This document shows positions 1 to 20,000 of a stretch of 20,000 nt of DNA, in pieces. Every line of letters starts with the position of its first letter. The stretch's first letter is position 1. Below the pieces are notes generated by a model. That model saw nothing but the letters and a program-made list of their open reading frames with translations, did no database searches and was not told the DNA's origin. The translations under genes were made by a program, and so were the position numbers. Origin of the DNA: Proteromonas lacertae (Eukaryota); the NCBI GenBank assembly GCA_002245135.1, contig NGBS01001166.1:230222-250221 (forward strand), in the 5' to 3' direction.

Positions 1-3000
1 ATTTTCATAGAGGTCAATCACTATTTCTATTTTTAGAGAATGCCAAGAATATTGGATTTAAAGGTCATGTTGATTTACACAAATTATTGACATTGACACA
101 ATTTTCATTCAAATCATCAACTATTACCTTATTACCAAATCTAAGACTATCTAATAGAATATCACTCTCTAAAATAGATAATAGTAATAAATTTATTCCA
201 ATACAGAGTATTCCAGGAATTAATGGCATATATTATAGCGATATATTAGATAATCAATATGAAATGATATGTGACATAACAAACTACAATGATGAAGTTA
301 AATCAACTGATTATTACGTTATATTAATAACATATTTAACTGGAGATTTATCAAAATATGATTCAAGTGTTAAAACTGGATTAAAAATAGCATTAGAAAT
401 ATTAAACAATGATAATCCAATATTGAACAGAAATACTCATCCAATCTATATGGATGCAAATAGTAATAACTTAAATGATGAAATAATTCATTATATTAAT
501 TCATTTAATGTTATTGCTATTTATACTACAATGGAATTTACTGATTTTGAAGTATTTACAAATACTGCAAATGAAACAATATTTGAAACTCCATTTATAT
601 ATCTCAATCTAGTACCAAACGAAATAGTGAGTGATAAATACTTCTTAAATGGAATGAATATAGGAAATTTATGGAGAGAAACTAAAACAGCATTAAATCC
701 TAAAAACATATTCTTTATAGGCAGTAAAGGAACAGTATCAGCAAATGCAATATCTTATATATCCTATGATGCTTCATTGAATGGAATTAATGTTAGAGGT
801 AGTTATATATTAGATAGTAATACATACGAACATGCTGTAAATGCGTGTAATGAGATTGAAGCAGAATGTAAACTACATAGTGATTGTTATATTATTACAT
901 TTATGGAAAGGAATTATACTTTGAAGTTTTATGAAGAATATAAGATTGCAAGATTAATATATCCAATTGTGTCTTATAATTTAGATGAATTAATGATTAA
1001 TTCTGTTAATAAAACATATGTATAATTATATTTTTCTTTTTATATTGTATTTAGTATGAAAACCATTATGTTATTGGATATTTCTTCAATGAAATGGAAC
1101 TATCAGATGATGTTGATAATCGATTAAGCGATTACATTAAATCAAATTCATTTTATAAAGATTTTATTGTTACTTCAAACACAGCTATTTTATATTCAGA
1201 AATAATGCTATTATCATCTGTATATTATTGTATTCTAAATTATATGAATAGGTTATTGATATTACAAGGCAAATATCCAAAGAAAAGATTAAATATTCAA
1301 TGAAATATGGTTATGTAATAGGCATAGGAGGTGTAATAAAAGGAAATGATGAAGGATATGCTGATTTTAATGTTCATACAGGAAAGATTAGTAATGGAAA
1401 GATAGAAGAAATTAGTAAATCATTTTTTGTAGAAGTATCAGCTGTCTTTAGTGATTCAACCAAATATTATGATAGAGATTCAAACCAGATTAAAACAAGA
1501 GAAGTTAAGACAATATCTTTCTTATATGTGAGAAATGAAAAGAATGAAGATAGAATCAATCATTATGTATTATATGATTCATTTGTGATTGAATATTTGA
1601 ATAATCAATACAATGGTGTAGCTGGTTATAGAATAAGAACAGCATTTCCTGAATTATATAGTAATGAAGACTTAAAGAATTATGTTCAATCTGTTGCTAA
1701 TAGTGATGATTTATTGTTATTTGTTGGTACTTTGACTTTTGAAGAGAGAGAATCAATTCAACAGCTGTTGATTGATAGTAATAAGTTGTTATTGAGTATT
1801 CATCCTGCTGTTGGAAATCAATGTTATAGAAATATTATTCAAATATCATTTTTTTTCGTTTATTTTTAGCATTTATCTGTTTCTATAATTCTAGTTTATT
1901 TTGGAGTATTGCCTCAACATTATATATTTACAATTATTGCATATTGGTATAAACACAGTAATAATTGCATTATGATATATGGAGATAATGAAGTTAATAA
2001 ACACACAGCAAATTACACTTTAAAATACACTGAAGAAATAAAGAATTATAAATGTGTTGGTGTATATGTATCAGATAATTCAAATCTTACAGAAATCATT
2101 GAAAATGAAATTGTCAATAAATATACTGATGGTGCTGCAATAATAACAGCTTTAGATGAAAGAACAGAATCATTTCTAATAGAAATGAGTAATTATAGTA
2201 GCAGTAATAATTATCTTTATCCAATTATAATCACTGATTATATTGAATATAAATACTTCGAATTAAAATATAAAGAATATTATGAGAACGTTTATTTTAC
2301 ATCATCTTATTCATATCATTTAGATAATGAAGAAACAAGAACAATGTCAGAAACTATTACTAGTTACTATGGCAAATCAAAAGAACTAATGACAACAACA
2401 ACACTTACATTATATTCTGCTTTGAGACTATTTACTGAAAGTTATCCAAATAATTATAACAACAACAGCAATGAAATAAGATATAACATGTATGATACTG
2501 TTATTACATCTCCAATGGGTAAGATTATTGTTGATACAAGTAATCTAATGAGAATGTATACAATGATGATTCAGATAAAGAATAATAACAGTGAAATAAT
2601 ACTAAGTTCTGATTATAGCTATTATGAATCACAATTTGCAGATATTGTATAATTTATCATTATATATATATTAATAATAGTTTAATAATGAATATTTAAC
2701 ATGTCATTTTGAAGAAGGTTCAATATCTGATGTAATAAAGGAAGAGGTTCAAGAAATAGGTATTTGGCTTGAAGATGATGAAAGTGTTAGATTCACAGTT
2801 CAAGAATATCTCTATTATAATAAGTTCACATATGGAACTACTTATGTTGAAAAAACAGTATATTGTTCTGATGAAGAATCGATATTTAAAATGGTTAATG
2901 ATAGTTCAATATCATATATACTTTCAACATGTAATAGAACAGTCAATTCAAATATTGCTGAAGTTGCTAATGAGAAGAATGTAAATATATTCATTTTAGA

Positions 3001-3044
3001 AGATCAATATGAACCAATATGTGAAAAGAGATTGTATATAATAT

Positions 3045-3076
<32 letters not shown>

Positions 3077-6000
3077 GAAATAGTATGGTATTAGGATCTT
3101 CTCCTTCACAAAGACTCATTCCTCTAATTCAATATTTATTTACAGTAGTTGATTCAAATGTATATGTCATTATTCCACTTGCTTTCAACAATTCAATTGA
3201 AATTGATATGATACAAACCACAGTTGATGTAAATGGAGGTAAAGTAATTCAAATCCTATTCATTGATGAAGAAGATGATAGTAAAAATGTGGCAAATGAA
3301 GTGAAAATCAGTAGTTTAATAGCTTCAATTTATAGAAATGGCAATACAGGTGGTATTATACTCAATTACCTTCATAAATATGATAAATACTTATTTATAT
3401 ATCTTGAAAATATGTTAAAATATCATACGCTTGGTCAAAATGAAAAAGAATCTGAATTTATCATTGTTTCAATGGATATTGATAGAATCTTGGATATTGA
3501 AAATCCAAAGTTATTGGATAATCATGTTGCTTTAGGTGTGTCATACATAAGTAAAGAAACTAGTAAATTCTTATATGATATAAGTACAAATACATATGGA
3601 GAAGGAAATATATTAAAGAAAATAGAATCAAGAGGTTTAATTGCTATTGAATTTATATTAACTGTTAGTGTATTATTAGAGAATAGTGAAAATCATGATT
3701 TCATGGATTATATTCATATCAATGAGATTACCACATCTTTAGGAAATATTAGAATTGATTATGATAATTATTTTCCTTCAATAGTTTCCATATATGTTGC
3801 AAATACTACAAATATATTACATATAAGATATGTTTTATCCAACCAATGGCCTGGTGAAACTTATAGAATAACTTATCAAAATATCACATTATTTCCTTTT
3901 TGTGATGTTACAAATAAGAATAAAATTCAAGATAGATTGTCTATTAATGTCATTCTATTTGTTCCATTGCCAAGTAATTATAAATTAGAAGGATATAGAA
4001 TGTTACTCTCTTACTTATCAATAATTGATTATATTAACAAAAACTACAGAGTTAATGGGTTATATATAAATCCAATCGTTATTGATACAAAGGGAGGGTA
4101 TGAAATAGTTAGAGAGGTATTATCAAAGATGTCAATAGAATATAACACCAAAATAGCATTGGGAATTGATAATAGTTTGAATAGGAAAGAAATAGCAAAT
4201 GAATTAGATGATTATGATGTATTATTAGTATATCCAAATGATTTTGAAGGATATGAATGCAAAGAGAATATTATATACGTTGGAGTTCCATTTGCAGCTA
4301 AAGTAACTTACTTACCATGGATCTTAGGTCATTTAAATAACAAAATTTATGTTGTTTATACAGATTCATATGATAATGATGTTATTTCTAAAATGATTAG
4401 TCATGAGTTGAATTTAAGAGGATATTCTATTGTTGGTATTTCAAAAGTACCAGAAACTAATTATATACTAAAAGAAGTGGTCAATATGGTACATATGAAG
4501 ATGAGAAATGGTGGTGTAATATTATCATTCTTAAAAGGAAATGCAGCTAAAGAATTATACAAAGCATGTTATGATGAAGATATTAAATATCCAAATTACT
4601 ATATTATAAGCGATAATTTGAATGTAGCAAATATAAATAATGATGAAGGAGTGTATATGATGAATCATTATATATGGAATACTTATCCTGAAGAGTATTA
4701 TGATGTGGAAGAATATGTTAATGTTTATAACAACAAGTATACATTCATTACAAATCATACAACTAGTTTCGTTCCTGCATTTCTTTCTGTTAAAATATTA
4801 GCATTAGCATTTCAACATATTACATTCAATGAGAATTATTCTTCTGCTTTTACAGTTGATTCTATTCTCAATAAAGTTCATAATGTTTCAACATCACAGA
4901 TTAAAATATATAACAACAATTTCGCATCTTTTACTTTGAGTATAAAACAGATTAAATATAATGAAACTTCAAAACAGTGTTATGGAGATATAATCTATAA
5001 ATATCAATCAAATTCAGAACCAAATCCTTGGGCATCTACTTACAATCTAAATGGTAAATTTATATGTGATTGGAATGAATCAAATCCAAATAAAAATGAA
5101 ACAATTCCAGTGGATGCTGTTTCAATTGCATTAGTATTTCCATTAAGTGATCTGGAATTAGGTAGTTATGCAACTGATATATTAGAATCAGCCATATCAA
5201 CATTATCTGAAATAAATGATAAAAATGGAGGTGTTAATGGTTTGTATATTGATTACATTGTTTTTGATTATAAATATGAAACTGAATCAATACTAACTAA
5301 GATTGCTTATGATATATTAGAGAATGAAAATATTGTGTCTGTTTTTGGATGTTTGAGTGAAACTTGTAAGAATATTATTTCCAGTATATTGCAACAGAAA
5401 TCAATTTCATTATGGTATCCAGGAACAGCATATTGTCTCAGATATGATATCTAAAATTGGTAATATAAGAACAGCAGTATTCTTTTATTTAAGTGGATCT
5501 TTATCATCATCAGTTTTACATGAAATAGAAAATCAAGGTATTAGTTTATCTACAGTTAATCTAATTCTAATGAGATTTTCAAAAGCTGATTATTCAGATG
5601 AATTATTGATGAAATTATCAGGAGCTTTAATACCAGCAACTTATTCTTCAGATTTATCAAGTCCATTAGCAAGATCATTTCAATCAGATATGAAAGGTGG
5701 ATTAGGAAATACAGTAGAAATACCAGAAGAAATGGAATATGTATATTCAGCCTTGCATTTATGGAAAAATAGTTTAGAAACTAGTATAAAAGACAGTGGA
5801 GGTGATATAAACCCGCCAATTGAATATATTCGATTGAATATGATTGATAAAACATTTACATCTCCATCTGGTCCAATGATCTTAGATAAAACATTATATG
5901 TAAAGAGAAGTATGTATGTATTTAGAGTTAGTGATGATGGTAAATTTATTCAAATATATCCAAAGACAGGATCAACTGTATTATATGATCCAATTCCATA

Positions 6001-7248
6001 TCCAGATGGTGTTCCAGCAGAATGTAATTTTGGTAAAAAGAAAGTATATTTTGAATATAATACCATGATGAAAGCTGTTGCTTATGTGTTAATGAGTATT
6101 GCAATAGTTTTATCATTTTGGTCATTGTTATTCACATATGCATCAAGAAATAAAATGATTATTAAATCATTTGGTAGATCTTATAGTTTTATATTTGCAG
6201 TACAGTTGTTGATACTATCATTAGCAGTAATACCAATGGCAATTGCACCAACTAAAAGTAATGGGATTTGCACAGCAAGAGTTGTATTCTTAGGTTTATG
6301 TGTAAAAGGAGTGTTAGGTTTAATGATAGCTAAATGTATGAAAATATATAACAGATATAGAAGATTGAAAAGAAACATTAAAAAGAGTAGAATAAAAATG
6401 GTTAGATTATTATTTACTTGGTTGTTTTTTGAATTATTAGAATCATTAATATTGATATTGTGGTTTACTTTAGATCCAAATGAATATGAAGAAACGTATA
6501 GTCAATCTCTCAGTGGTTATTTTTTCGATGAGTATATTAGAGAATGTACTACATCAACTCCATTTTTGTATATAATATCTATTATATATTTCATGAATAT
6601 ATTTCTAGAATCGTTGAATTTATTACTGATGGAATTCCATTAATAATTCTGTTATATATCACTAATGTAATAAAGAATAAAATTAATGATCATAATGAAG
6701 GAACAGCAATGTTTATTTCTAGTTGTGTGATATATATCTTTTTTTCATTAACATTTATCTTGTTATTAGCTTCATCTTAATGTTTTTTACCTGTTTTTGG
6801 TGTTGTTATGACTGTATTAGATTTTTATGTTAATTCAGAACCTAATACTGTTTTGTTATTAAGAGCAATGGGAATTGAAATTACTCAAATTTTAATGATT
6901 ATGTTACAATATGGAAATATCTTTTTTTTTACACAATTTTCTTAATGATGTTATTTAATTCTATTGTTTACTAAAAATGATTAATGTTTATATTGATGAT
7001 GATTCAAACAGAATAACACAATCAGGCAGCCAAGCAAGTAAAACTGAAAAGAAATATCCTTTTCATATCTTATTCATCCTATTTATTTTCTTAATTTATT
7101 CAATCTGTTAGATTCTTCCCATCATTCTTCTAACTCTCAAAACAAAACTCAAACCTCTACATTCCTTACATCACACATGAAATCTATGTTTACAACATCT
7201 ACATTAAATGCAATTACAAAAAATCAATCATCAAGGAAGTTGTTATAA
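1..7248 (+). CDS. Giant class C-like GPCR: >=5 tandem UrtA/AmiC-like periplasmic-binding (Venus flytrap) domains + 7TM; 5'-partial; one internal frameshift/deletion near 5430
   Basis: Hand-spliced exons: <3-1019, 1055-1219, 1252-1842, 1900-2646, 2681-3033, 3084-6567 (frameshift ~5430), 6609-6733, 6791-6916, 6972-7053, 7104-7248. GT-AG introns 1020-1054, 1220-1251, 2647-2680, 3034-3083 and 6568-6608 each restore the frame. UrtA/AmiC-like motifs: LSEINDKNGGVNGLYIDYIVFD, VFGCLSETCK, LLVYPNDFEGYECKENIIYVG, SPSGPMILD, EPNPW..ICDW. Class C 7TM motifs: IIKS (ICL1), CTARVVFLGL..LMIAKCMKIY (TM3), LILWFTLDP (TM4), ECL2 Cys, HNEGTAM before TM6, LQYGIK at the end of TM7. Confidence 0.85.
1843..1899 (+). 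other. Probable U12-type intron, AT-AT termini, 57 nt
   Basis: Starts ATATCATTTT; branch-like TTCTATAAT at 1881-1889; ends TTTAT. Removes the in-frame TAG at 1867-1869 and gives CYRNIIQ|FGVLPQH, matching the repeat copy ECKENIIYVGVP. Confidence 0.7.
3050..3076 (+). repeat. (TAT)9 microsatellite inside GT-AG intron 3034-3083
   Basis: Directly visible; explains the poly-Tyr in ORF 2891..3094. Confidence 0.9.
6734..6790 (+). other. U12-type AT-AC intron, 57 nt
   Basis: Starts ATATCTTTTT; branch-like CATCTTAAT at 6773-6781; ends TTTTAC. Removes the in-frame TAA at 6778-6780 and gives continuous TM6 SSCVISVFGVVMTVLDFYV. Confidence 0.85.
6917..6971 (+). other. U12-type AT-AC intron, 55 nt
   Basis: Starts ATATCTTTTT; branch-like TTTTCTTAAT (6937-6946) or TTATTTAAT (6951-6959); ends TTTAC. 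Restores the frame to LQYGIKMINVY, the class C TM7/helix 8 junction. Confidence 0.85.
7054..7103 (+). other. Probable U12-type intron, AT-AA termini, 50 nt (alternative AG acceptor at 7111)
   Basis: Consensus U12 donor ATATCCTTTT; branch TTTTCTTAAT at 7086-7095. The AA acceptor at 7103 opens a Ser/Thr-rich tail (NLLDSSHHSSNSQ...SSRKLL, stop 7246-7248). Confidence 0.65.
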
Positions 7249-7302
7249 TAATTGTTTTATTTTTATTATTTTTAGTATTAAACACACAAAATAGTCAAAT
7301 AA

Positions 7303-10300
7303 CTATTTAATATTATAAAAATGGTTTGATAATTCTTTCTTTAATTCTTTACCAATTCCATCTATTGTTATTGATTTAAGTGATGAAAACGATTTTAAAA
7401 ACGATACTAATTCTAATTTATCTATCTCTTCTTTTATTGTTATTGTTAATAGACTTAAACATTCAAACACTTCTTTGTCTTCTGTCATCAATCTTAATTC
7501 TTCTTCATTTAACTTATTTCCTGATAGATTTATCTTCTGCAATGGCTTATGAACTTTTAATCTTTCTATTAACATTTTTAATCCTCTTTCACTCATTCCT
7601 ATATCTATTTCAATTAAAAAACTATGTTATATTCATAAAATACTTGAAATATTTAATATTAATGAATAATTATCATCAATAAATTTATCAAAATTTTCAC
7701 AAATAATCTCTATTCCTTCATCTCCAATTGGATTGTTAAATATTGAAATATAATTTAAATCTTTTGGTATAGATTGAATTAATTCTGATAATCCTTTATA
7801 ACTGATATGATTATTGGATAAATCAAGTGTTTCATAATCAATCTGTTTTATGATGGGAATGTGAGAATCATTGATATTTAAATCTATTGCATTATATACC
7901 TTGATTTAATACTGGATAAATCATAGTATTTATACATATCACTTTTTTTAGTACAATAGTCTAGATAATACTCCAATTCTTTATTTTTCCAAGATGAATT
8001 TTTCATCTGAATGAACGGATATTCTTCATTTTCTAACGATTTTGAACATATTGATTTTAATCCATTCATTTTGATATTATTCTCATTGAGATTAATTACA
8101 TTACACTCTCCAATTAAATATAATATATCTGTAAACATTACGGCACTTTCATCATTTATTGATGTATTACTCAAATTAAGATCACTGTCTATCATTATAT
8201 CCAACTTCTCTTCCAACAATTTTAATCCAATATTACCAATCGGATTATCTATTACACAGAATAATAAAGATTATATAACAATATATATATATATATATAT
8301 ATACTGTTAATAATTAATTGTTCAATATTATCATTCTCTTTCACATAATTCATTAAATAATCTATACCTTTTGAATCAATATTATTATCAGCTAAATCAA
8401 GTACTTCAATCTTTTCATCAGCAATTCTTAAACCATCAACTAAATATTTCATTCCTAATGACGATAATCCCATTTCTATAAAACATTTATAAAACAACAA
8501 ACTATACTCGAACAATTCAGATAACTTCCTAATAAATGGATATGCAGAGATAAAATTCTCATTCCTTCATCTCCTATTTCATTTTCATATAATTGAAGTT
8601 CTTTTAGATTTGGAAATGAAGATAAATTGTTTATCAGTATTTCTACACTTTCACATGTCAGATTATTATCTAAACAAATGGAAATTTAAAAACATACAAC
8701 TCAAATCTAACACTTCTATTTCTTTAAATTCATTTAATCTTAAAGTAATGAATGATTTGAAAAAATCATCATTAATTCCACAATGATTCAGATTTAATCC
8801 ATTATTTTTGTATTTGACAAATTTAATTAACTCTGGAATATCTTTGTCAATCAACAATTCTTTATTTCTTCCATAAATATCAAATACTATTTTTGAAATA
8901 GAAAATTTTGAGAATACTGCTTTTAATCCACTAGAATAAATATCCCAGTTGTATGTAATATTTATTTTCTTTAGATTTGGATATTTAAATAACTCTTCTG
9001 ATAATATTATCATTGATTTATCATTTAAATTCATTCCACAAAGATTCAATTCATTCTTGTCATTTATTAATAAATGAAATATGGAATTAATAATTTGAAT
9101 CCTATTGGACCAATTGGATTATCTATTTCATAATAATCAATACAAATAGAAAAAAATCAATACATTCAAGATTTACATATTTAAGTTTCATAAATGGAAT
9201 TGATTTTACAAATGATTCTATAAAACGATATGTAAGATTACAACTACATAAATTCAACTCTTGCAGATTTGATATTTGATTATATAATGCTCCAAATAAA
9301 GGCTGGTATCTGATCTGAATATCAAGAATTTCTAAACAAGTAAATAATACTACAATAATACCAAATTTTAGTTTTTTAAAATTGGATAGTTTTAGTAATC
9401 TAAAAAAATAATCCATCCCTTCTTCACATAAACAAACACAAAGTTTATTAGCAATGACTCTTTCATTTAAATAATGAAGAAGGAGATTGAAAATCATTTC
9501 ATCTAAACAACAAATCTTGTTTTCTTTGTTTTTGTGATAAATTTGAAATTTCAGTTTATCTTTTATTGATTCATCTCTTTTGATTAGTTTCATCATTAAT
9601 AATATCGATAATATTCTATCATTTGGTTTATTGTTGTAAGATTCAATCAAACCATCTCTCATTAATTCATTCTTATTATATTCTATATAATAGTCTCTTT
9701 GAGTATCTAATGGAGTTATTTCTAGTAAATAATCATTATTGAAGAATGTATATTTTCTTTCATTATATATCATTATATTATTATTTTCATCTCTAAATAT
9801 TTCACTCACTTTTATCATTTCTTTTCTCAACTCTTTTAAACTCAATCTTTCTTCATTCTTCACATTCAACATTCTCTCCATCATCTCTTCCATCATATCA
9901 TCACATTCTACATCTATACGATATTTACATCTCAGAATTTTATTCAGTGTTCTGTTGATATTATTATCTTCATTAAATGGTAATTTTTTGTTTATCATTT
10001 CATATAATATACAGCCAATAGACCAAATCACACTTTTATCATTACATTCTAATCCATTCAATTCTTCAGGGCTTTTGAAGCAGATATCATATAATCTTAT
10101 ATCTTCTTCTTTTCTCAATGTGTTTAAAAACAAATCACAGATCTTTATTTCACCTTCACTTTCATATACTATGTTACTACTCTTCAAATTGTTTATTATT
10201 ACATCATATTCACTCAATACCACTAATATATCACATATTGAACATATAATAGCACAAATATCACCAGTTATCAACGAATTATTATGAATTATTTCTTCTA

Positions 10301-10599
10301 AGTCTCTTTCATAATATTCTCTTGACAATATCATATGATCACCATATTTATTCATCTCAAACACTTTTGAAGGATATAATAACGATTTACAACTATCTAA
10401 CAACAAGGAGTCAGTCTCATAGAATTTTAATATATTCTTTTCTTTTATATCACTAACATTTAACATTTTCAATTTTTTAATATTACTTCCATATTCTACA
10501 ACTATATCTACTTCAGTTACACTCTTTTCTATTCTCTCTTTTAGCTAATAATAATAAATCAATAAAAATACATCTGAATTTGAGGGTAATATCGAGGAT
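7303..10599 (-). pseudogene. Protein kinase-like (probable pseudokinase) + RNI-like leucine-rich repeat gene; 5' end apparently interrupted by the Polinton; frameshift near 9080
   Basis: Exons 10599-10572, 10544-9362, 9331-9164, 9122-8698 (frameshift), 8669-8508, 8475-8305, 8248-7913, 7883-7644, 7604-7303, joined by GT-AG introns of 27, 30, 41, 28, 32, 56, 29 and 39 nt. Kinase motifs: INNLKSSNI, IKICDLF, SPEE, IWSIGCILYEM, ERLS. LRRs: LKELQLYENEIGDEGMRIL, IEVLDLADNNIDSKGIDYL, LQKINLSGNKL. Confidence 0.8.
8281..8303. repeat. (AT)n microsatellite inside minus-strand intron 8249-8304
   Basis: Directly visible; explains the IYIYIY runs in the ORF track. Confidence 0.9.
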
Positions 10600-10700
10600 A
10601 GTAATAATAATAGTAAATAAAGGTTCTGGCACACCGAGCCGTATGACTCGGGCTCCTGGCACACCGAACCAAACTTTTTAAAATTACGTGACATATGTCA
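10600..10700. repeat. Putative left terminal inverted repeat (inner boundary unknown); candidate 6-bp target site GAGGAT at 10594-10599
   Basis: Begins 5'-AG(T) with a short tandem repeat, as Polinton termini do. GC-rich patch with direct repeat CTGGCACACCGA (10626-10637, 10656-10667) and perfect palindrome TGACATATGTCA (10689-10700). Confidence 0.7.
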
Positions 10701-10751
10701 TATTAGGTCATAATTTATTTTTGCATTTTCTAGAATATTCTAATTTCATAT

Positions 10752-11060
10752 ATGGATAATCTAATTAAAGAAGAAGCAGAAAATGGTTTTGATTCTTTAT
10801 ATGAAATGTGTAATGTATATCTCAATAAGAATGATGATGGGAGCAATGACTATCAAACATCAATTAAAATAGCATGTGAGATTATATTAAAATTAAAAGA
10901 ATTAAATGAAGAATATCATTTAGGATTAGATGATATGGTATTACATCAAATAGGAAGATTAGAAGGGAAAAAAATAGCAAGTCAATATTTACAAAAAGAA
11001 TTAGAAAAACAATTAAATGAAATAATACCAAGTTTAAACAATATGTTAAAAATCAAATAA
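10752..11060 (+). CDS. Hypothetical protein (102 aa, helical), Polinton accessory ORF
   Basis: Clean ATG-TAA intronless ORF with protein-like composition; no motif recognised. Confidence 0.6.
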   Translation: MDNLIKEEAENGFDSLYEMCNVYLNKNDDGSNDYQTSIKIACEIILKLKELNEEYHLGLDDMVLHQIGRLEGKKIASQYLQKELEKQLNEIIPSLNNMLKIK

Positions 11061-11068
11061 AAAATTAA

Positions 11069-11542
11069 TTAGTCTTTATCATCTTCCAATCTGTTTTTAA
11101 AAATATAATATATAGAATTTAATTCTGAATTTGTATCGATTAAATAGAGATAATGATTTTTTATATATCTAAAATTTTTAATAGTATTTGCATTCAAATT
11201 GAAATCTTCTTCAGAAATATATGCAAAATCTTCTACATAGAAAGTGTCCAGTTTATTAATTAATTTTTCTAAGTCTTCTATAATATCCAGTCTATAAGAT
11301 GTTAATTCAGATTTGTTAAATGTGGTTGCTATTTTACTTCTGTTATATTTCAATTCGATATTTTGTATGAAAGTTACAAAAGACTTTATTTTATCTCTTA
11401 GATCTGTTTTATCTTTACTACTAAAATTTTCACTTAGATTTAATTTATAGACCCTTCTACTTATATCATTTAAACTACTAATATAATTTTTAAGTACATC
11501 AAAGAATACATAGAATTCATATACTCTAGCAAAATTACTCAT
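11069..11542 (-). CDS. Hypothetical protein (157 aa), Polinton accessory ORF
   Basis: Clean intronless ORF converging on the previous ORF with an 8-nt gap; no motif recognised. Confidence 0.65.
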   Translation of the reverse strand: MSNFARVYEFYVFFDVLKNYISSLNDISRRVYKLNLSENFSSKDKTDLRDKIKSFVTFIQNIELKYNRSKIATTFNKSELTSYRLDIIEDLEKLINKLDTFYVEDFAYISEEDFNLNANTIKNFRYIKNHYLYLIDTNSELNSIYYIFKNRLEDDKD

Positions 11543-11775
11543 ATTTTTTGGTATAAATTAATTAATTAATTAGATATACTACTAATAGAAATTGTTCTTC
11601 CAATTCAAATCTGATCCAAAGAATATAATATAATTCAAGTAAAAGAAAGAAATATAAAGCAATAATATAAAATAATAAATATAAGTCGTAAAAGAATTGA
11701 TATATAACTTTTAGAAATTTCTAAAAGAATAAAAATAATAATAAAAATATAAAAAATTAATTTTTAATTTTCTAG

Positions 11776-14700
11776 ATGAACCCTTTCATCCCTCCTTATT
11801 ATTATTATTCAAACTTTAATTATTATAGTCCACCACCATTTGGAGCACCTTATATTCCTCCTCCACAAAATTATGGATTTAATCCCATGCCCATGCCATA
11901 TCCAGGTATGGCACCTCCTAATATGTATGAACCACCTCCACCTATTCAAAATATTCCAGTAGTTAGAAATTATGTTCCACCAAGAAATCTAGTTACAAAT
12001 ACAAATCCTGGTTTCAATTATTATCCTGGAAATATAGGAGTAGATTCAACACCTCAAATTAATATTCCTGAACCAGGATTTGTAACACCACCTCCCAAGA
12101 GAAGATTAGATTTCGAAAACATAAGTCCTCCAAAAATACAAAGAAAAGGAGGTATGCAGGTTCAAATGCCTAATCCAAATCCTAATCCAAATCAACCTGT
12201 TGTTGTTGTTAATCAACCTCCACCAAATGCACAACAGCGTAATAGAGTAGCTGATTTAAATTTATCTTATCAAGAAGAAAGAGATTTAAGAGAAGCAAGT
12301 GATATATTAGAAAATCATCCTACTAAATTATTAAAATTACCATATGAAAAGAGATTATATTATATGGACTTAATTCAGAGAAGTACAGATAATTATAGTA
12401 GAACATATCAAATTAACTTTTTAAATGATGTAAATGGTAAAGATCCAGATGCTGTTGTTGAAATTATAACTGATCCTAGTAGCCCATTAATTACTAAAAT
12501 AAGAGAATATTTAGAAGATGTTAAATATATAAAAGTAACATTAAGTTTTAGAAGTGGTTATATAGGAGCAGACGATCCAGATTATAATAATCCAAATGGT
12601 AATAAAATTACAAATTGGGTATTCTTAGAATGTAGACCTGTAGTTATTACAGAATCAGAAATGAATGTTGCACATAAAATATTAAAAGATAGAATAAGAA
12701 CAGAAATGGGACCTTTATGGCATACTGAAAAATCAAGTTTAAAATTTAGACATGTTGGTGAAGTTGAAGTTCAATTAGTCAAAGCAACTGCTATGGCAGG
12801 TAGTGGTAAAAATAAAGAACTTCCAGATTGGATTAGAAATAGAAAATGTGTTATATCAATAGATAATAATAAAGAAAATGATCAATTATGTTTTCTATAT
12901 GCTATAGCAGCAGCATTTTTTCATGGTAATAATAATAATAAGAATTTAAATAGAGTAGAACAATATAAAGAATATATTAGAGTTAACTACAATTATAGTA
13001 TGTTATATTTCCCAGTAGATCCTATAAAACATAAAAAACAAATTCATGAATTTGAAACAATAAATCATATAACATTAAATATATTCAAAATAACAGATAA
13101 AGAAGTAGTTCCAATATATGTAACACATATAGATAAGTTCAATAATTATCCACATGTGAATTTATTATATAATGATAAACATTATTCTACTATTACAAAA
13201 TTAAATGTAATATTAATACCTAAAGGAAAGAAGTGTAAAAATGGTTATCCTAGATGTAATTATTGTTTTGCTTTATTATCAACAGATGAAAAAAGAATAC
13301 AACATGAAAAATATAATTGTCAACAACATAAAGGTATTATAAGAAATTTCCCTGAGAAAAATATTCAATTAGAATTTAAGAACTTTAAATATATGCAACT
13401 AATACCTATAGTAATATATTGGGATACTGAAGTTTATCAGGAGAAAGTAACAGATCCAATTTTAAATGAGAAAGGTATTTTATCAAAGCATATATTATCC
13501 AGTTGGTGTTTATATGTTGTATCAAAATATCCTAATATATATCCTAATAAAATTGAGTATGATTTTAAAACACCTAAAGATAATGAAACAGATTTAGAGG
13601 ATAGATTAATAGCTAAATTTATGGAAATACAAAAAGAAATATTAGATTTATATGAAGAAAAATTAAAAAATCCTGAAAAAATGATAGGATATAATAGAGA
13701 AGATCCTAAAAATAAATTGAATTATTGCATATACTGTAAAGAACCATTTGATTATAGGAATAAGAATAAGAAACCTGTTTTACACCACGACCACTTTAGT
13801 GGACAATATATAGGTAGAATATGTAATAATTGCAACTTCCATGTATGTTTAAATAATATGCCAATCCCTTGTATTGCTCATAATTCCAAAAATTATGACA
13901 ATAATTTCATTATTAGAGGATTGTCCAGATGGGATAATAAGTTAAGAGATGAATTTTGTAAAGAAAATAATATTGATCCTAATGTAAATTATGCTTCAGA
14001 TACTGAATCTGATAGTGATACTGAAGAAGAAGATAATACTAGTTATACTAATTCTATTCCTGTTCCACATCAAGATAGTGATACATTTACTCCATTACCT
14101 CCTTATACTAATGGCTTTATAACAGCAAATAAAATAAAAGATTATGTGAAAAATTTAAGAAAAGAAAAACAAGAAGAAAAAGATGATAATAATAATTTCA
14201 GTATGAGTCCATTACATGATTCTTTAAGTGATATGGAAACTCAAGAAGCTGAAAGTGAAGTAATCCAAATTAATAATGAAGAAGTTAATGCATTGTTAGA
14301 ATTAGAAGAAATGTTAAGAAGAGATAGTCCTAGAAATGCAGAAGATGTTATAGATGAAATAGATGAACAATCTGCTTATAGAATTATTAAATGTAAAGAT
14401 GGTAAAATAAGAAAATATAAAAACAAAAAACAATATAAATCACAATTATCAGTATTACCCAAAACAGATAATAAATTTTTATTAATAAAGTTCAACAAAT
14501 TATACTTTATGGACTCTTATCAATTCTTACCAAGTTCTTTAGATTCTTTAACAAAGTCATTATATACTCAAGCAAAAAGAGATAATGGAAATTATCAAAA
14601 ATATTTCAGTTATGTATATGAAGATATTTATAAAAAATATTCTGCTCCTGGTAAATTGGATCATGATATGAATATTGATGCTTTTATCCATAAATGGTGT

Positions 14701-16692
14701 TTATCTAAAGGATATTTTCCATATGAATATGTAGATTCATTATCTAAATATTTTAATACTTTTGAACTACCTCCTAAAGAAGCATTCTATTCAAAGTTAA
14801 AAGATGATAATACTGTAACAGATGTTGAATATGCTAGTTGTCAGGCTTTATGGAAAGTTATTAGATGTGATAACTTAATGGATTACAATTTATTTTATCT
14901 CAGATTAGATGTTCTTACATTAACATGTGTATTTGAACATTTTAGAGATGTTATATGGAATAATTTTACTTTAGATCCATTATGGCATTGTAGTTCACCT
15001 GGTTTATCTTGGAGTATATTCCTTAAAAATTGTGATGTAAAAATTGATTTAATAAGTGACTCTGATATTTATGACTTTATACATTCTGGATTAATAGGTG
15101 GGATTTCTATGGTTGGTAGTATGAGATATGCAGAGTCTTGGAATCATTATCAACCTCAATGGCAAGAGAAAAATAAAAAGGAAGTACAGGATCCAGATAA
15201 TCAAACATATATTATGTATATGGATTATAATTCTTTATATCCAAGTACTATGGCTAGCATGAAGTTACCATATAGTGAATTTGAATGGATTGAACCAACT
15301 ACTGAAAATGTAAAGAAAATATTATCATTACATTACTATGAAGAACAAAGAGAAAAATATTACAATACAGAATGGATTAATAAAAATATGTATGGATATA
15401 TTCTAGAAGTAGATATTTCTCCTCCTAGTAATAGTAATGAAAGAAAAAAATTTGCTGAATATCCTTTGTTACCTGAAAGAAAAATAGTTGACTATGATAA
15501 TTTATCTGAAATACAAAAGAAATGGGCAGAGTCTTTAGGATTAGTTTCAGAAGTTAAAAATAATATTGATAAAACATATAAAGTTAAAAAGTTAAAGTCA
15601 AATGTTCCTAAAATAGTATGTGATTTAACAACAAAATACAACTATGTTGTTCACTATCAATATTTGAAATTTGCATGTGAAATGGGTTATGTTATACATC
15701 ATATTCATAGAATTATCAGATTTAAAGAGTCTAATTATGCACATAACTTTGTAATGATGAATCATAACTTAAGAAGACAAGCTAAATTAGAAGGAAGGGA
15801 TGCCGATGCTGATACTTTTAAGCTTATTCTAAATAGCGCTTATGGAAAGACATGTGAAAATACTGAGAATAGATGTACCTCCAAATTGGTTAATAATGAA
15901 GAAGACTTTTTACAGTGTACTTCCAATCCATTTTATAGAAGTTTTATTGCTATAGATAATAGTAACTTACGTATATGCAAATTTCAAAAATATAAATGCA
16001 CTATTGATAAACCATCTTATATTGGTATGAGTATATTATGTGAATCTAAAAGGTTAATGGCTCAGTTCTGGTATGGACATTTATATAGGAAATATGGGAG
16101 TAGTTTAAGATTATTGATGAGTGATACTGATAGTTTCATATTTATGGTTCAAACTAGAGATTTCTATATGGATATTATGAACGATCCACATTTTGAAAAG
16201 AAAGTTGATACTGGTAATCTTAATAAACAATACTTAATAACTAGAGGTATACACTATTCAAATGTTAATCAAAGTTCAGAACTTAACTTATTAAAAATAG
16301 AAGAAAATAAGAATGGTTTATACTCTATTACTAGATTTGCAGGATTAAAACCTAAAATGTATGCCTATGAAAAAGTAAGAGTAGACGATGATATACATTG
16401 TGTTACACATGATAGTAGAGCTAAAGGAGTTACAACTGGATATAGAATTAAAACTTGTGATTTTGACTTTTATAGAAAAATATTAACAGATGCTGAAGAT
16501 GAAAAGTCTTACAGAGTAGATAAAATCAAACAATATAGTTTCAGAAGTGTTAACCAAACTTTATATACTATGGAACAAAATAAGTTGGCTTTTAGCATAT
16601 TTGATTCTAAAAGGTATTATTTAGATGTTTATCATAGTATTCCTTTTAATGATTATTATCCACCTATTATTAATAACACTACTAATGTTTGA
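11776..16692 (+). CDS. polB: Protein-primed family B DNA polymerase (pPolB) polyprotein with OTU-like module, Zn finger and endonuclease VII/HNH-like Zn insert
   Basis: ExoI IYWDTE, ExoII HNSKNYD, MDSYQFLPSSL, KGYFPYEY, ExoIII YLRLDV, motif A MDYNSLYPS, motif B KLILNSAYGK, motif C SDTDS, KMYA, KGV. N-terminal LCFLYA...KHY; CNYC..H...C; CIYC..HHDHFSG..CNNCN. Confidence 0.95.
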   Translation: MNPFIPPYYYYSNFNYYSPPPFGAPYIPPPQNYGFNPMPMPYPGMAPPNMYEPPPPIQNIPVVRNYVPPRNLVTNTNPGFNYYPGNIGVDSTPQINIPEPGFVTPPPKRRLDFENISPPKIQRKGGMQVQMPNPNPNPNQPVVVVNQPPPNAQQRNRVADLNLSYQEERDLREASDILENHPTKLLKLPYEKRLYYMDLIQRSTDNYSRTYQINFLNDVNGKDPDAVVEIITDPSSPLITKIREYLEDVKYIKVTLSFRSGYIGADDPDYNNPNGNKITNWVFLECRPVVITESEMNVAHKILKDRIRTEMGPLWHTEKSSLKFRHVGEVEVQLVKATAMAGSGKNKELPDWIRNRKCVISIDNNKENDQLCFLYAIAAAFFHGNNNNKNLNRVEQYKEYIRVNYNYSMLYFPVDPIKHKKQIHEFETINHITLNIFKITDKEVVPIYVTHIDKFNNYPHVNLLYNDKHYSTITKLNVILIPKGKKCKNGYPRCNYCFALLSTDEKRIQHEKYNCQQHKGIIRNFPEKNIQLEFKNFKYMQLIPIVIYWDTEVYQEKVTDPILNEKGILSKHILSSWCLYVVSKYPNIYPNKIEYDFKTPKDNETDLEDRLIAKFMEIQKEILDLYEEKLKNPEKMIGYNREDPKNKLNYCIYCKEPFDYRNKNKKPVLHHDHFSGQYIGRICNNCNFHVCLNNMPIPCIAHNSKNYDNNFIIRGLSRWDNKLRDEFCKENNIDPNVNYASDTESDSDTEEEDNTSYTNSIPVPHQDSDTFTPLPPYTNGFITANKIKDYVKNLRKEKQEEKDDNNNFSMSPLHDSLSDMETQEAESEVIQINNEEVNALLELEEMLRRDSPRNAEDVIDEIDEQSAYRIIKCKDGKIRKYKNKKQYKSQLSVLPKTDNKFLLIKFNKLYFMDSYQFLPSSLDSLTKSLYTQAKRDNGNYQKYFSYVYEDIYKKYSAPGKLDHDMNIDAFIHKWCLSKGYFPYEYVDSLSKYFNTFELPPKEAFYSKLKDDNTVTDVEYASCQALWKVIRCDNLMDYNLFYLRLDVLTLTCVFEHFRDVIWNNFTLDPLWHCSSPGLSWSIFLKNCDVKIDLISDSDIYDFIHSGLIGGISMVGSMRYAESWNHYQPQWQEKNKKEVQDPDNQTYIMYMDYNSLYPSTMASMKLPYSEFEWIEPTTENVKKILSLHYYEEQREKYYNTEWINKNMYGYILEVDISPPSNSNERKKFAEYPLLPERKIVDYDNLSEIQKKWAESLGLVSEVKNNIDKTYKVKKLKSNVPKIVCDLTTKYNYVVHYQYLKFACEMGYVIHHIHRIIRFKESNYAHNFVMMNHNLRRQAKLEGRDADADTFKLILNSAYGKTCENTENRCTSKLVNNEEDFLQCTSNPFYRSFIAIDNSNLRICKFQKYKCTIDKPSYIGMSILCESKRLMAQFWYGHLYRKYGSSLRLLMSDTDSFIFMVQTRDFYMDIMNDPHFEKKVDTGNLNKQYLITRGIHYSNVNQSSELNLLKIEENKNGLYSITRFAGLKPKMYAYEKVRVDDDIHCVTHDSRAKGVTTGYRIKTCDFDFYRKILTDAEDEKSYRVDKIKQYSFRSVNQTLYTMEQNKLAFSIFDSKRYYLDVYHSIPFNDYYPPIINNTTNV

Positions 16693-16776
16693 AACTTTTA
16701 TATTTCTTTTTATTATTATATTTTTATATTATTATTATTTCTTTTGTTTTCTTTATATTATAAAAAATAAAAAATA

Positions 16777-18144
16777 ATGTATTTCGGATGGGATCCTGCT
16801 AAAGCATTTTTTAATACTATGAATGATGTAGGTAACTTAATGGATAAAAATATACAACATTTACCTAAACAACCTAAATATCCTGAATCATTGCAATATT
16901 ATATGAATTATGGTAGAGATGGTATACCTAGAGAACCTCCTACTACTGACTATAAATTATATCCTAATCCTGAATATTCTCAATATCAAAATCGTTTACA
17001 ACAACTATATAATAAATATCATTATTTAAGTGATAGAGATTTTATTAAAATGGTAATGAATCCTGCAGATAATAATGAAGTACCACCACCTATAGATGCT
17101 ATAAAAGAATTTTTAGCTAGACAACCTGGTCATCAAATAGTAGACTTTCAGTATAAAAAGGATAATCCTTTCGTTAGTATTAAAAAGCCTGGTTGGTTCC
17201 AGATGGATATAGTTTATTTTTTACCTGAAACACATCATCTGTATTTTATTGAAACTAACTCTCGAAAAGTATGGGTAGTACCTTTGAAAAGAGAAGATGG
17301 AAATACTTGTTTAAATGCTTTCTTTTCTTGGTATTATAAAGAAGATCAAGAAGCTTTTTTAAATCCAAACTATCAACCTAATATAGTAGCTAAAAGAAGA
17401 GTTATTAGTATATTAAGTGATCAAGATGATAGTTTTAATAAAATAAAAGAATTTTGTGATACAGAAGGTATAAATACTTATCAAAAAAATCCTTCAGAAC
17501 ATAGAATAATGAGTGTATTAGATAGAAGTGTATCTATGGTTAAAAAACTATTATATAAACATCTTGTTGAAATAGACTTTCCTGATCCCTTTCGTTATAG
17601 AAATCAAACTCATGCTAAAAGCTTTCCACCTAGTGCATATATGAATCAGTGGCTTACTAACTTTAATCATGAAGTATATAAAGTAGTACAAGACTATAAT
17701 AATAAACCTCATCCTGCATTAAAAGGATATACTCCTAATGAAGTATATCATTCTGAATTACTACAGAAAAGAGTATTAGTTGAAAGCATAAATAAAAATG
17801 TAGATAATGAATTTAAACTAGAAGATAAACAACGATTTAAAGTAGGCGACTATGTTAGATTTAAAGAAAGAAGAAGACAATTAGATAAAATAACTACTTG
17901 GAGTGATGATGTTTATATGATTATAAATAAGTTTAGATTTTCATATCAAATAGGTGATACTAATGGTAACTTTGTACCTAATGTTAGTAATCAGAGGTTT
18001 AAGCATTATGAATTAGAATTAGTAGAAAGAGCGCAAGATAGAAATGCTTATTTTAGAGCGTATCAAGCAAACAGAAGATTTTATAATCAACATTTTAGAA
18101 AAACATTAAAAAGACCAGGACTCAAAAGAAAGGGAATAGTATAA
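16777..18144 (+). CDS. int: Retroviral-like (rve/c-integrase) integrase of Polinton type
   Basis: WFQMDIVY, ILSDQDDSF, VLDRSVSMVKK, YNNKPHPALKGYTPNEV, C-terminal SH3-like FKVGDYVRFK..WSDDVY..ELELV. Confidence 0.92.
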   Translation: MYFGWDPAKAFFNTMNDVGNLMDKNIQHLPKQPKYPESLQYYMNYGRDGIPREPPTTDYKLYPNPEYSQYQNRLQQLYNKYHYLSDRDFIKMVMNPADNNEVPPPIDAIKEFLARQPGHQIVDFQYKKDNPFVSIKKPGWFQMDIVYFLPETHHLYFIETNSRKVWVVPLKREDGNTCLNAFFSWYYKEDQEAFLNPNYQPNIVAKRRVISILSDQDDSFNKIKEFCDTEGINTYQKNPSEHRIMSVLDRSVSMVKKLLYKHLVEIDFPDPFRYRNQTHAKSFPPSAYMNQWLTNFNHEVYKVVQDYNNKPHPALKGYTPNEVYHSELLQKRVLVESINKNVDNEFKLEDKQRFKVGDYVRFKERRRQLDKITTWSDDVYMIINKFRFSYQIGDTNGNFVPNVSNQRFKHYELELVERAQDRNAYFRAYQANRRFYNQHFRKTLKRPGLKRKGIV

Positions 18145-18154
18145 TATATATTCC

Positions 18155-18176
18155 ATTAATTAATTAATTAATTAAT
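18155..18176. repeat. Self-complementary (TAAT)n tract between convergent genes; candidate bidirectional 3'-end signal
   Basis: ATTAATTAATTAATTAATTAAT is a perfect 22-bp palindrome between the integrase stop (18144) and the minus-strand stop (18180-18182). Confidence 0.55.
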
Positions 18177-18179
18177 TAT

Positions 18180-19427: not shown

Positions 19428-19583
19428 TTTAACTAATTATAATTAAAAAATTATGTAAGTGTTTGCTATTATTATATAAAATAATACAACTAATAAAAAC
19501 AACAAAAATATTTAAAACAAATACAGAAATAAAGAATAATATTTTTATGAATATCAGTAAATATAAAAAATATTTATATATAT

Positions 19584-20000
19584 TTATATAATATATTTAT
19601 ATTTTTTGAAAGACTTTTTAAATAATTCAATTTGTTTTTCACCAGTCTGAGTATTAAAATTAGTGCTTTGCTTAAAACTTTTATTTTTCTTTAATATATT
19701 TTCTAAAAATTTTATAGCAAAAAATCCACAATTTGATGTTGTGGACTTTTGATTTTGAATAGCATTAACTTTTAACTCATATTCTTTATTTTTGTTTCTT
19801 TTGAATTTTTTAATAGTATTTTTAAATGTTTCAAAATTCTTTGGATTTTCTCCAAAAGAATCATAGTATAAAAAATTGTTATGAACATTATCAATCACAA
19901 GAGATACCCAATGACCTATTTCATCAGGTTTTGCAGATGTATTTAAAGTGTTAATTATTATTCCCCATCTATTTTTAGATGTATTTATTGGGAGGACTAA
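19584..20000 (-). CDS. pro: Adenain-like (clan CE) cysteine protease, virion maturation protease; 5'-partial
   Basis: Frame open to the window edge: WGIIINT...IGHWVSL...YYDSFG...IQNQKSTTSNCGFFAIKFL, containing the His, Asp, Gln and Cys catalytic residues. Confidence 0.9.
   Translation of the reverse strand, partial: LVLPINTSKNRWGIIINTLNTSAKPDEIGHWVSLVIDNVHNNFLYYDSFGENPKNFETFKNTIKKFKRNKNKEYELKVNAIQNQKSTTSNCGFFAIKFLENILKKNKSFKQSTNFNTQTGEKQIELFKKSFKKYKYII

What the first reader, a model, noticed from the sequence alone, without database searches (positions are those of the whole stretch)
1..7248. Giant class C-like GPCR with a tandem array of bacterial urea/amide-binding (UrtA/AmiC-like) domains
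Seen: repeat units start near 312, 1507, 2750, 3943 and 5122 (~1.2-kb period), most ending in a Cys-containing linker (MICDI, LTCHF, PFCDV, FICDW, AECNF). The tail of another unit is at the window start and a 7TM follows. Known: canonical class C GPCRs carry one Venus flytrap domain. The motifs LLVYPNDFEGYECKENIIYVG and EPNPW..CDW resemble bacterial UrtA/AmiC rather than mGluR/GABA-B ectodomains. Inference: a >2200-aa multi-ligand chemoreceptor built from a possibly horizontally acquired solute-binding domain, with strongly diverged copies. I do not know of a characterised receptor with this architecture.
Basis: partly seen in the sequence, partly recalled or inferred. Interest (0 to 1): 0.8.

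Follow-up and report, generated by a model that had tools for sequence, protein, structure and literature searches.

The report
Six-flytrap class C receptor, broken copy
A microbial eukaryote's DNA encodes a string of at least five, probably six, highly diverged bacterial-type urea-binding folds in front of a glutamate-receptor-type seven-helix membrane domain, likely one giant small-molecule sensor whose pockets are predicted to no longer bind urea, but in this copy a frameshifting gap in the last binding unit breaks the link between the string and the membrane part.

Summary
Five ~385-aa units plus the tail of a sixth precede a 7tm_3 domain (Pfam E 1.3e-19). U1-U5 each beat 200 shuffles on a UrtA/AmiC profile; the U0 tail did not. 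Unit 4's best PDB matches are UrtA and AmiC. The units share only 10-18% identity and keep at most 3 of the 8 conserved UrtA pocket residues, so urea is an unlikely ligand. The 'Cys linker' is UrtA's own C-terminal arm. At ~5430 the last unit lacks ~80 codons and the frame shifts, so only half a unit is in frame with the 7TM; one >2,270-aa chain is inferred, not shown. Three or four of nine introns look minor-spliceosome (U12) type. No genome, reads or relatives were found. Bacterial binding domain + 7tm_3 fusions are catalogued in protists and fungi; I found no report of a six-copy UrtA-type array. Unchecked scan notes describe two- and four-domain receptors on other DNA. Verdict: new variant of a known kind, possibly a damaged copy.

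The parts
3..278 (+). U0: C-terminal tail of a probable sixth binding-protein unit (92 aa, ends in a Cys motif); the gene start lies outside the window
   Evidence: Open frame from base 3; aligns by eye with the unit C-termini; not detected by the UrtA profile, so its identity is inferred
279..1470 (+). U1: UrtA/AmiC-like unit, 375 aa spliced; lacks both cysteines of the pair; 0 of 8 urea-pocket residues
   Evidence: 15.6 bits vs 5.4 best of 200 shuffles; residues
1020..1054 (+). Intron 1, GT-AG, 35 nt (predicted)
   Evidence: Removal keeps the frame open; 11% GC
1220..1251 (+). Intron 2, GT-AG, 32 nt (predicted)
1471..2710 (+). U2: UrtA/AmiC-like unit, 383 aa spliced; both cysteines kept; 0 of 8 pocket residues
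   Evidence: PF13433 30.1 bits on its second exon; 23.0 bits vs 9.0 shuffled
1843..1899 (+). Intron 3, AT-AT ends, U12-like donor, 57 nt (predicted)
   Evidence: Of 16 in-frame acceptors tried, the profile score peaks at 1899 (23.0 bits); the 9 GT/GC-AG alternatives scored give 9.2-14.4 bits (9 of 13 listed were scored)
2647..2680 (+). Intron 4, GT-AG, 34 nt (predicted)
2711..3909 (+). U3: most diverged unit, 383 aa spliced; both cysteines kept; up to 3 of 8 pocket residues
   Evidence: 7.1 bits vs 4.0 shuffled, marginal; no Pfam hit on its exons
3034..3083 (+). Intron 5, GT-AG, 50 nt (predicted)
3910..5073 (+). U4: best-conserved unit, 388 aa in one exon, with the UrtA-type C-terminal arm (P-x-P-W ... 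C-D-W); 3 of 8 pocket residues
   Evidence: PF13433 E 7.8e-23; TIGR03407 E 1.9e-14, far below its cut-off; AF2 pLDDT 83.7 with a 51-row alignment; Foldseek ranks 1-7 are UrtA/AmiC
5074..5430 (+). U5 N-terminal part (profile positions 23-99), in frame with U0-U4; this frame stops at 5452-5454
5415..5454 (+). Lesion: about 80 codons of U5 (profile ~100-178) are missing and the frame shifts
   Evidence: no reads were available to tell a real deletion from an assembly fault
5432..6031 (+). U5 C-terminal part (profile positions 179-359), ending in the terminal Cys; in frame with the 7TM
   Evidence: PF13433 E 2.8e-11
6032..6973 (+). ~15-aa stalk and class C-type 7TM: seven hydrophobic helices after splicing; TM3 and ECL2 cysteines, TM3 basic pair and TM6 acidic residue present; the TM7 proline is absent
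   Evidence: PF00003 E 1.3e-19 on the TM1-4 exon; best PDB hits mGlu4 (E 4e-6), then other mGlu and GABA-B2; hydropathy scan; positions
6568..6608 (+). Intron 6, GT-AG, 41 nt (predicted)
6734..6790 (+). Intron 7, AT-AC, U12-like donor and branch site, 57 nt (predicted); holds an in-frame stop
   Evidence: GT-AG alternatives are 96-213 nt and cut into the TM6 region
6917..6971 (+). Intron 8, AT-AC, U12-like, 55 nt (predicted)
   Evidence: GT-AG alternatives are 109-235 nt
7054..7103 (+). Intron 9, U12-like donor and branch site, acceptor uncertain; a 74-nt GT-AG alternative (7038-7111) also keeps the frame
6974..7248 (+). Ser/Thr-rich cytoplasmic tail; stop at 7246-7248
   Evidence: no Pfam hit

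Best explanation
The locus encodes five recognisable UrtA/AmiC-type flytrap folds (and likely a sixth) followed by a class C-type seven-helix domain; these likely form one giant cell-surface receptor, built by old tandem duplication of a probably bacteria-derived binding domain, in which closure of the membrane-nearest flytrap would switch the helix bundle and the outer flytraps would catch other small solutes, but this copy is interrupted by a frameshifting gap in that nearest unit. Shown here: the folds, their order, the 7TM family, the loss of most urea-pocket residues, a ~15-aa stalk with no cysteine-rich domain (the GABA-B-like layout), the co-varying Cys pair, and the gap. Inferred: one transcript; a disulfide pinning each unit's C-terminal arm; ligands other than urea (small amides or amino-acid-like solutes are the nearest guess from the fold's relatives); dimerisation and G-protein output by analogy with class C receptors. 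For the gap my split is about 50% real deletion (dead or dying copy), 35% assembly fault, 15% bypassed by a cryptic in-frame splice.
For: Exons from 3 to 5430 splice into one stop-free frame of 1,740 aa, and 5432-7248 into 537 aa with seven hydrophobic helices. The two halves of U5 are collinear on the profile (23-99, then 179-359) with no overlap, as a simple internal deletion would leave them. No second 7TM, stop or intergenic gap lies between units. GC3 is the same on both sides of the break (14.8 vs 15.4%). The Cys pair co-varies: of 77 bacterial sequences 74 have both, 2 neither, and 1 (a frameshifted locus) only the first; U2-U4 have both and U1 neither; U5 keeps the second, which suggests its partner lay in the missing stretch. 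Unit 4 folds as UrtA (TM-score 0.75-0.77). Class C TM features named in PMC3727952 (passages) are present except the TM7 proline. Nine predicted short AT-rich introns argue against bacterial contamination.
Against: Only half a unit is physically in frame with the 7TM. No transcript, reads, genome or paralogue was available. Three homologue searches and two metagenome scans gave no hit. U0 and U3 are weak on the profile. The AF2 model was driven by 46 bacterial UrtA-like rows of 51, so its likeness to UrtA is partly circular; without an alignment pLDDT was 42.4. The neighbouring kinase-LRR gene also has a one-base frameshift and abuts a mobile element, which fits local decay. Nothing here shows that any unit binds a ligand, and 0-3 of 8 pocket residues kept fits non-binding domains equally well. 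The TM5-TM7 exons alone match nothing in Pfam or PDB.
Confidence: 0.62

Rival explanations
1. The gene is one receptor, but most or all outer units are non-binding pseudo-flytraps that serve as a long, glycosylated stalk or adhesion arm; only the nearest unit, or none, senses a small molecule.
For: U1 and U2 keep 0 of 8 pocket residues, and U1 has lost the loop and both cysteines. Units are only 10-18% identical. The 1,740-aa upstream part has 19 N-glycosylation sequons. No geometry is known by which a sixth domain could move the helix bundle.
Against: Every unit keeps full two-lobed length (375-388 aa) and five score above shuffles. Different polar residues sit at pocket positions in each unit, as new specificities would need. 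Tandem flytraps are proposed as sensors in trypanosome adenylate cyclases (PMC6027212, passages), though their role is stated there as undiscovered.
Confidence: 0.35
2. The break at ~5430 is a large deletion or mis-join that fuses two neighbouring paralogues: an upstream multi-unit gene whose own end is lost, and a downstream receptor whose start is lost. The six-unit-plus-7TM chain would then never have existed in this exact form.
For: The link across 5430 is not shown by any read or transcript; tandem receptor clusters are common in protists (general knowledge); a mobile element and a frameshifted neighbour lie close by.
Against: The two U5 halves are collinear and non-overlapping, with a gap of only ~80 positions; a join between paralogues need not land so. 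No repeat marks the junction among the repeat families shown. Even in this case the upstream gene has at least five tandem units.
Confidence: 0.15
3. The gap is genuine and the locus works as a truncated, secreted or surface-bound multi-flytrap protein, or as a receptor with a half-sized last unit made by cryptic splicing.
For: In-frame rescue introns exist across the break, one with this gene's usual donor start (5384-5441, GT-AG, 58 nt). The rest of the 7.2 kb has no other lesion. A 7TM-less flytrap receptor is known in Entamoeba (PMC12965686, passages).
Against: That candidate intron is 34% GC against 8-19% for the nine predicted introns, and it encodes a stretch that matches the UrtA profile. 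A premature stop upstream of four introns would probably trigger decay (general knowledge).
Confidence: 0.12

Closest known systems
Non-animal class C (7tm_3) receptors with bacterial solute-binding ectodomains: chytrid/Allomyces and Dictyostelium (PMC3251606, section 20 and passages), anaerobic gut fungi (PMC5168858, passages), diatoms (PMC3727952, passages), and the 'Peripla_BP//7tm_3' architecture in PMC3971589 (passages and supplement file 3)
   Same: 7tm_3 bundle behind a prokaryote-like binding domain; no nine-cysteine domain; long and variable N-termini (up to 1,667 aa in PMC3251606, 1,600 aa in PMC5168858); ligands unknown.
   Different: The passages I read name ANF, Bmp, OpuAC, LysR, SBP_bac_1, PBP_like_2, TctC, type II sugar-binding or unspecified Peripla_BP domains, not UrtA/AmiC, and describe no array of five or six; here the ectodomain would exceed 1,950 aa. 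The supplement lists domain strings without copy numbers that I could read, and figure files were not readable, so multi-copy cases may be hidden there.
Animal GABA-B and metabotropic glutamate receptors (PDB hits mGlu4/6/7/8 and GABA-B2)
   Same: 7TM family; TM3 and ECL2 cysteines, TM3 basic residues, TM6 acidic residue; type I flytrap directly before TM1 with a short stalk, as in GABA-B.
   Different: One ANF_receptor flytrap per chain there; here five or six UrtA-type folds with no PF01094 match; TM7 proline missing; no NCD3G.
UrtA (PDB 8TG1, 7S6E, 7S6F, 8HIC) and AmiC (1PEA, 1QNL)
   Same: Fold (TM-score 0.75-0.77 for U4), the Y-P-x-x-x-E-G-x-E-C loop and the C-terminal arm with its Cys.
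   Different: 17-23% best identity; TIGR03407 53 bits against a 493 cut-off; at most 1 of the 4 urea hydrogen-bonding residues in any unit; no transporter or amidase genes; intron-containing and in tandem.
Trypanosomatid receptor adenylate cyclases (PMC6027212, passages)
   Same: Protist surface receptors with tandem flytrap domains of unknown ligand.
   Different: Two flytraps, one TM helix and a cyclase domain; no 7TM.

Membership tests
Class C GPCR (7tm_3) | 7tm_3 profile match above the curated cut-off | tested here: met
   71.3 bits vs 33.5, model positions 2-161 of 251, on the TM1-4 exon
Class C GPCR (7tm_3) | Seven transmembrane helices | tested here: met
   Seven hydropathy peaks on the spliced model; depends on predicted introns 6-8
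Class C GPCR (7tm_3) | TM3/ECL2 cysteines, basic pair at the end of TM3, acidic residue at TM6 (features per PMC3727952) | tested here: met
   Read from the translation and the mGlu4 alignment; the TM6 acidic residue was placed by eye
Class C GPCR (7tm_3) | PK motif in TM7 | tested here: not met
   Lys present, Pro replaced; the site spans predicted intron 8
Canonical class C GPCR | A single ANF_receptor (PF01094) Venus flytrap | tested here: not met
   No PF01094 hit at E<=10 in 13 exon pieces; PF13433/PF13458 instead, in several copies
Canonical class C GPCR | Ectodomain and 7TM in one open frame | tested here: not met
   Frameshift with ~80 missing codons at ~5430 as assembled
Class C GPCR (7tm_3) | Dimerisation and coupling to a heterotrimeric G protein; G proteins in the host | not testable with these tools
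   No genome held
UrtA urea-binding protein | Type I PBP fold nearest to UrtA/AmiC | tested here: met
   U4: 6 of 6 PDB sequence hits; Foldseek ranks 1-7 (model guided by a UrtA alignment); U1-U3 and U5 by profile only
UrtA urea-binding protein | TIGR03407 score above cut-off | tested here: not met
   53.3 bits vs 492.75
UrtA urea-binding protein | Pocket W120, S122, Y141, Q144, E146, Y190, N246, S274 (PMC10392092) | tested here: not met
   U1 0/8, U2 0/8, U3 3/8, U4 3/8, U5 1 of 5 scoreable; alignment at 11-23% identity, so single positions may be off
UrtA urea-binding protein | Linked urtBCDE transporter genes | tested here: not met
   None among the window's ORFs scanned; eukaryotic, intron-containing gene
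U12-type (minor) introns | AT-AC-type ends, ATATC(C/T)TT-like donor and branch motif (consensus recalled; AT-AC per PMC5608401) | tested here: met
   Introns 7 and 8 are AT-AC, intron 3 AT-AT, intron 9 uncertain; branch-like motifs 8-25 nt before the acceptor
U12-type (minor) introns | Spliced junctions in RNA and minor snRNAs in the genome | not testable with these tools
   No RNA run listed; no genome; no Rfam hit in the window

The most novel reading that the evidence does not exclude
A new class of 'beads-on-a-string' chemoreceptor: six or more separately re-tuned flytrap pockets of UrtA/AmiC descent, each for a different solute, all read out through one class C 7TM, so that one polypeptide integrates a chemical mixture; its helix bundle is completed only by minor-spliceosome splicing of recently gained AT-AC introns, and intact paralogues form a family in this protist lineage.
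Probability: 0.22. Interest if true: 0.82.

Novelty: new variant of a known kind. Interest (0 to 1): 0.55.

Why it matters
Class C receptors are explained by one flytrap per chain closing on one ligand. An intact version of this gene would put five or six very different flytraps on one 7TM, and would make it testable whether outer domains can signal over a distance or only gather ligand. It would also add the UrtA/AmiC branch to the list of bacterial binding proteins independently recruited to 7tm_3, which bears on how often class C ectodomains arose. Separately, three or four minor-type introns in a nine-intron, lineage-specific gene (against about 1% genome-wide in Blastocystis ST1, PMC5608401) would be a case of minor-intron gain, for which PMC10639083 reports very little evidence. 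The break in this copy and the lack of relatives cap the score.

Tried and rejected
No whole genome is held and no sequencing run was listed, so expression, the lesion, paralogues and host G proteins were not tested. The search for homologous proteins returned 0 hits in 3 of 3 searches (U4 longer, U4 near, U5C+TM longer); the U4 'near' search missed even bacterial UrtA, so these blanks carry little weight, and proteins over 2,000 aa were not searched. Two metagenome scans found no relative. The HMMER search of 1.84 billion representatives and the VIA second look could not be run, so no sensitive search for eukaryotic relatives was done. ESM Atlas gave only generic neighbours: GABA-B-like 7tm_3 clusters (0.94) and ANF/Peripla_BP_6 clusters (0.95), no multi-unit receptor. 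Single-sequence AF2 of U4 failed (pLDDT 42.4). A tree of 5 units with 29 bacterial sequences (27 of the 77 genome loci plus 2 plasmid proteins; quick search only) gave unit branches of 8-10 changes per site; donor and monophyly are unresolved and the one-clade test did not finish. The TM5-7 exons alone hit nothing in PDB. Rejected: bacterial contamination (introns, 7tm_3); a recent DNA tandem repeat or collapsed assembly repeat; an ordinary intron as the cause of the 5430 frameshift (both flanks are coding by profile, GC too high); an AT-AG acceptor at 1869 for intron 3 (11.4 vs 23.0 bits). Literature: 10 searches; the four that asked for Peripla_BP_5+7tm_3, GPCR+class C+solute binding+Blastocystis, GPCRs+anaerobic fungi+solute binding+class C, and Blastocystis+Proteromonas+G protein-coupled returned 0 papers; none of the listings described this architecture. 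One paper asked for by DOI is not held. The host was not identified; a Blastocystis-like stramenopile is only a guess from intron size and AT-AC introns.
Full report
Setting. The window is 19-30% GC in 500-base steps. It holds the receptor-like gene on the + strand (1-7248), a kinase-LRR gene on the - strand (about 7303-10544) and, from about 10,600, an element with a protein-primed DNA polymerase and a protease. No genome and no sequencing run is available. Short AT-rich introns mark the host as a eukaryote; I did not identify it.

Gene model. Five predicted introns (1020-1054, 1220-1251, 1843-1899, 2647-2680, 3034-3083) join bases 3-5430 into a stop-free frame of 1,740 aa. Four more (6568-6608, 6734-6790, 6917-6971, 7054-about 7103) join 5432-7248 into 537 aa. 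The introns are 32-57 nt and 8-19% GC, against 26-28% for the two long exons. All splicing is predicted; no RNA was seen.

The units. Cutting at the terminal Cys motifs gives a 92-aa tail (U0), four units of 375-388 aa (U1-U4) and a split fifth unit. Pfam Peripla_BP_5 passes its cut-off in U2, U4 and both halves of U5; ANF_receptor is not hit at E<=10 in any of 13 exon pieces. To test the weaker units I built a profile from 77 of 78 bacterial UrtA/AmiC loci. U4 scored 74.9 bits, U5N 29.7, U5C 26.7, U2 23.0, U1 15.6 and U3 7.1; the best of 200 shuffles per piece were 4.8, 3.1, -0.2, 9.0, 5.4 and 4.0. U3 is marginal and U0 was not reported. Units are 10-18% identical to each other and at best 17-23% identical to a bacterial sequence, so the duplications are old or fast-evolving. 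All 6 PDB sequence hits of U4 are UrtA or AmiC. An AF2 model of U4 with a 51-row alignment reached pLDDT 83.7, and Foldseek ranks UrtA and AmiC first (E 1e-22 to 3e-19, TM-score about 0.76), with CaSR, GABA-B and mGlu ectodomains lower (E about 1e-15). The alignment was mostly UrtA, so this ranking is partly circular.

The Cys motif. It co-varies with the Cys of the loop that follows the Y-P motif: 74 of 77 bacterial sequences have both, 2 have neither, and 1 frameshifted locus has only the loop Cys. U2-U4 have both and U1 has neither. A disulfide between them is inferred; I did not inspect coordinates.

The pocket. PMC10392092 (passages) names eight conserved UrtA pocket residues, four of which hydrogen-bond urea and are each needed for binding. 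U1 and U2 keep none, U3 and U4 keep three each (one hydrogen-bonding residue each), and U5 keeps one of five scoreable. Single positions may be misaligned at this identity, but the overall loss is clear. Urea is therefore an unlikely ligand.

The membrane domain. The TM1-4 exon matches 7tm_3 at 71.3 bits (cut-off 33.5) and mGlu4 at E 4e-6, with other mGlu and GABA-B chains below. The spliced model has seven hydrophobic helices. Of the class C features listed in PMC3727952 (passages), the TM3 and ECL2 cysteines, the TM3 basic pair and the TM6 acidic residue are present; the TM7 proline is not. About 15 residues separate the last Cys of U5 from TM1, with no cysteine-rich domain.

The lesion. The upstream frame matches the profile to position 99-100 and stops at 5452-5454; the 7TM frame picks up at position 178-179 from about 5432. 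About 80 codons are missing and were not found in a six-frame search of the window. In-frame rescue introns can be drawn, but the best-looking one is 34% GC and removes profile-matching sequence. The 4.9-kb polymerase ORF and the 2.4-kb exon are free of frameshifts, so the assembly is not generally noisy. The neighbouring gene has a one-base frameshift near 9080 with no GT-AG rescue. I put a real deletion at about 50%, an assembly fault at 35% and a cryptic splice at 15%. What is shown is a five-and-a-half-unit string, and separately half a unit plus a 7TM; their union is the best inference.

Minor-type introns. The pattern ATATC[CAT]TTT occurs 5 times on the + strand of 1-7250, against a mean of 0.56 in 500 shuffles (1 of 500 reached 5; the pattern was chosen after seeing the sites, so this overstates significance). 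Four of the five sit where the frame needs an intron. Introns 7 and 8 end in AC. For intron 3 the profile score peaks at an AT acceptor among 16 in-frame positions and beats the 9 GT/GC-AG alternatives scored. Intron 9 has a GT-AG alternative. Blastocystis ST1 has 346 U12 introns among about 35,000 (PMC5608401, section 8), mostly AT-AC (PMC10639083, passages). The neighbouring gene shows no such donor.

Mechanism. By analogy with GABA-B-type receptors (general knowledge), the flytrap next to TM1 would close on a ligand and move the helix bundle within a dimer. Outer flytraps cannot touch the membrane domain directly; they would either pass strain along the chain, concentrate ligands or act as a stalk. 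I favour one receptor whose units have drifted to non-urea solutes (0.62 for the single-gene architecture), with a non-binding stalk role for outer units as the main rival (0.35; not exclusive of the first). No binding, dimerisation or G-protein step was tested.

Comparison with what is known. Fusions of bacterial binding domains to 7tm_3 are described in fungi, Dictyostelium and diatoms (PMC3251606 section 20; PMC5168858 passages; PMC3727952 passages), and the supplement of PMC3971589 lists a Peripla_BP//7tm_3 architecture without a copy number I could read. Two tandem flytraps are known in trypanosome cyclases (PMC6027212 passages). Ten literature searches found no description of a UrtA/AmiC-type or a five-to-six-copy ectodomain on a 7tm_3. 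The library omits most subscription papers; figure supplements of PMC5168858 and most supplements of PMC5608401 were not searched. Unchecked notes of this scan describe a two-domain class C receptor in Rozella and a four-domain protist receptor with another membrane part; I did not test them.

Verdict. The architecture is real at the level of domains and order, and unusual in domain type and copy number. It works like a class C receptor by inference but fails the canonical membership tests (flytrap type, copy number, continuity), and its units are not UrtA proteins. New variant of a known kind; interest 0.55.

Noticed in passing
window 10600-20000: Polinton/Maverick-like element: protein-primed DNA polymerase B ORF 11776-16692 (PF03175 E 8.4e-18), ORF 16771-18144 that looks like an integrase by recalled motifs but has no Pfam or PDB hit, and a Ulp1/adenain-like protease 19584-20000 on the - strand (PF02902 E 6.2e-9). 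A short GC-rich direct repeat at ~10620-10670 may belong to its terminus.
   Followed up: partly
window 11776-16692: The polymerase ORF is unusually long (1,638 aa) with a proline-rich N-terminal ~150 aa, an acidic insert near the middle and a weak Endonuclease_7 match at residues 649-688 (E 0.02).
   Followed up: no
window 7303-10544 (- strand): Kinase-LRR gene (Pkinase E 3.4e-20) whose catalytic motifs look degenerate by eye; several GT-AG introns; a one-base frameshift near 9080 with no GT-AG rescue; its 5' end runs into the mobile element at ~10600.
   Followed up: partly
window 1843-1899, 6734-6790, 6917-6971, 7054-7103: Three or four of nine introns of the receptor gene look U12-type, one with AT-AT ends; none seen in the neighbouring gene.
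   Followed up: yes
window 7246-7305: The receptor and kinase-LRR genes converge with only ~55 bases between their stop codons.
   Followed up: no
L002 2902-5584 (Kovacikia plasmid NZ_CP083583.1): A UrtA-like sensor domain fused to GAF and histidine-kinase domains appears split into two ORFs at ~3582-3602.
   Followed up: no
L001 1294-3540 (Parageobacillus plasmid NZ_CP063415.1): A 777-aa protein with an N-terminal AmiC-like domain sits divergently from nitrile hydratase genes, probably their regulator.
   Followed up: no
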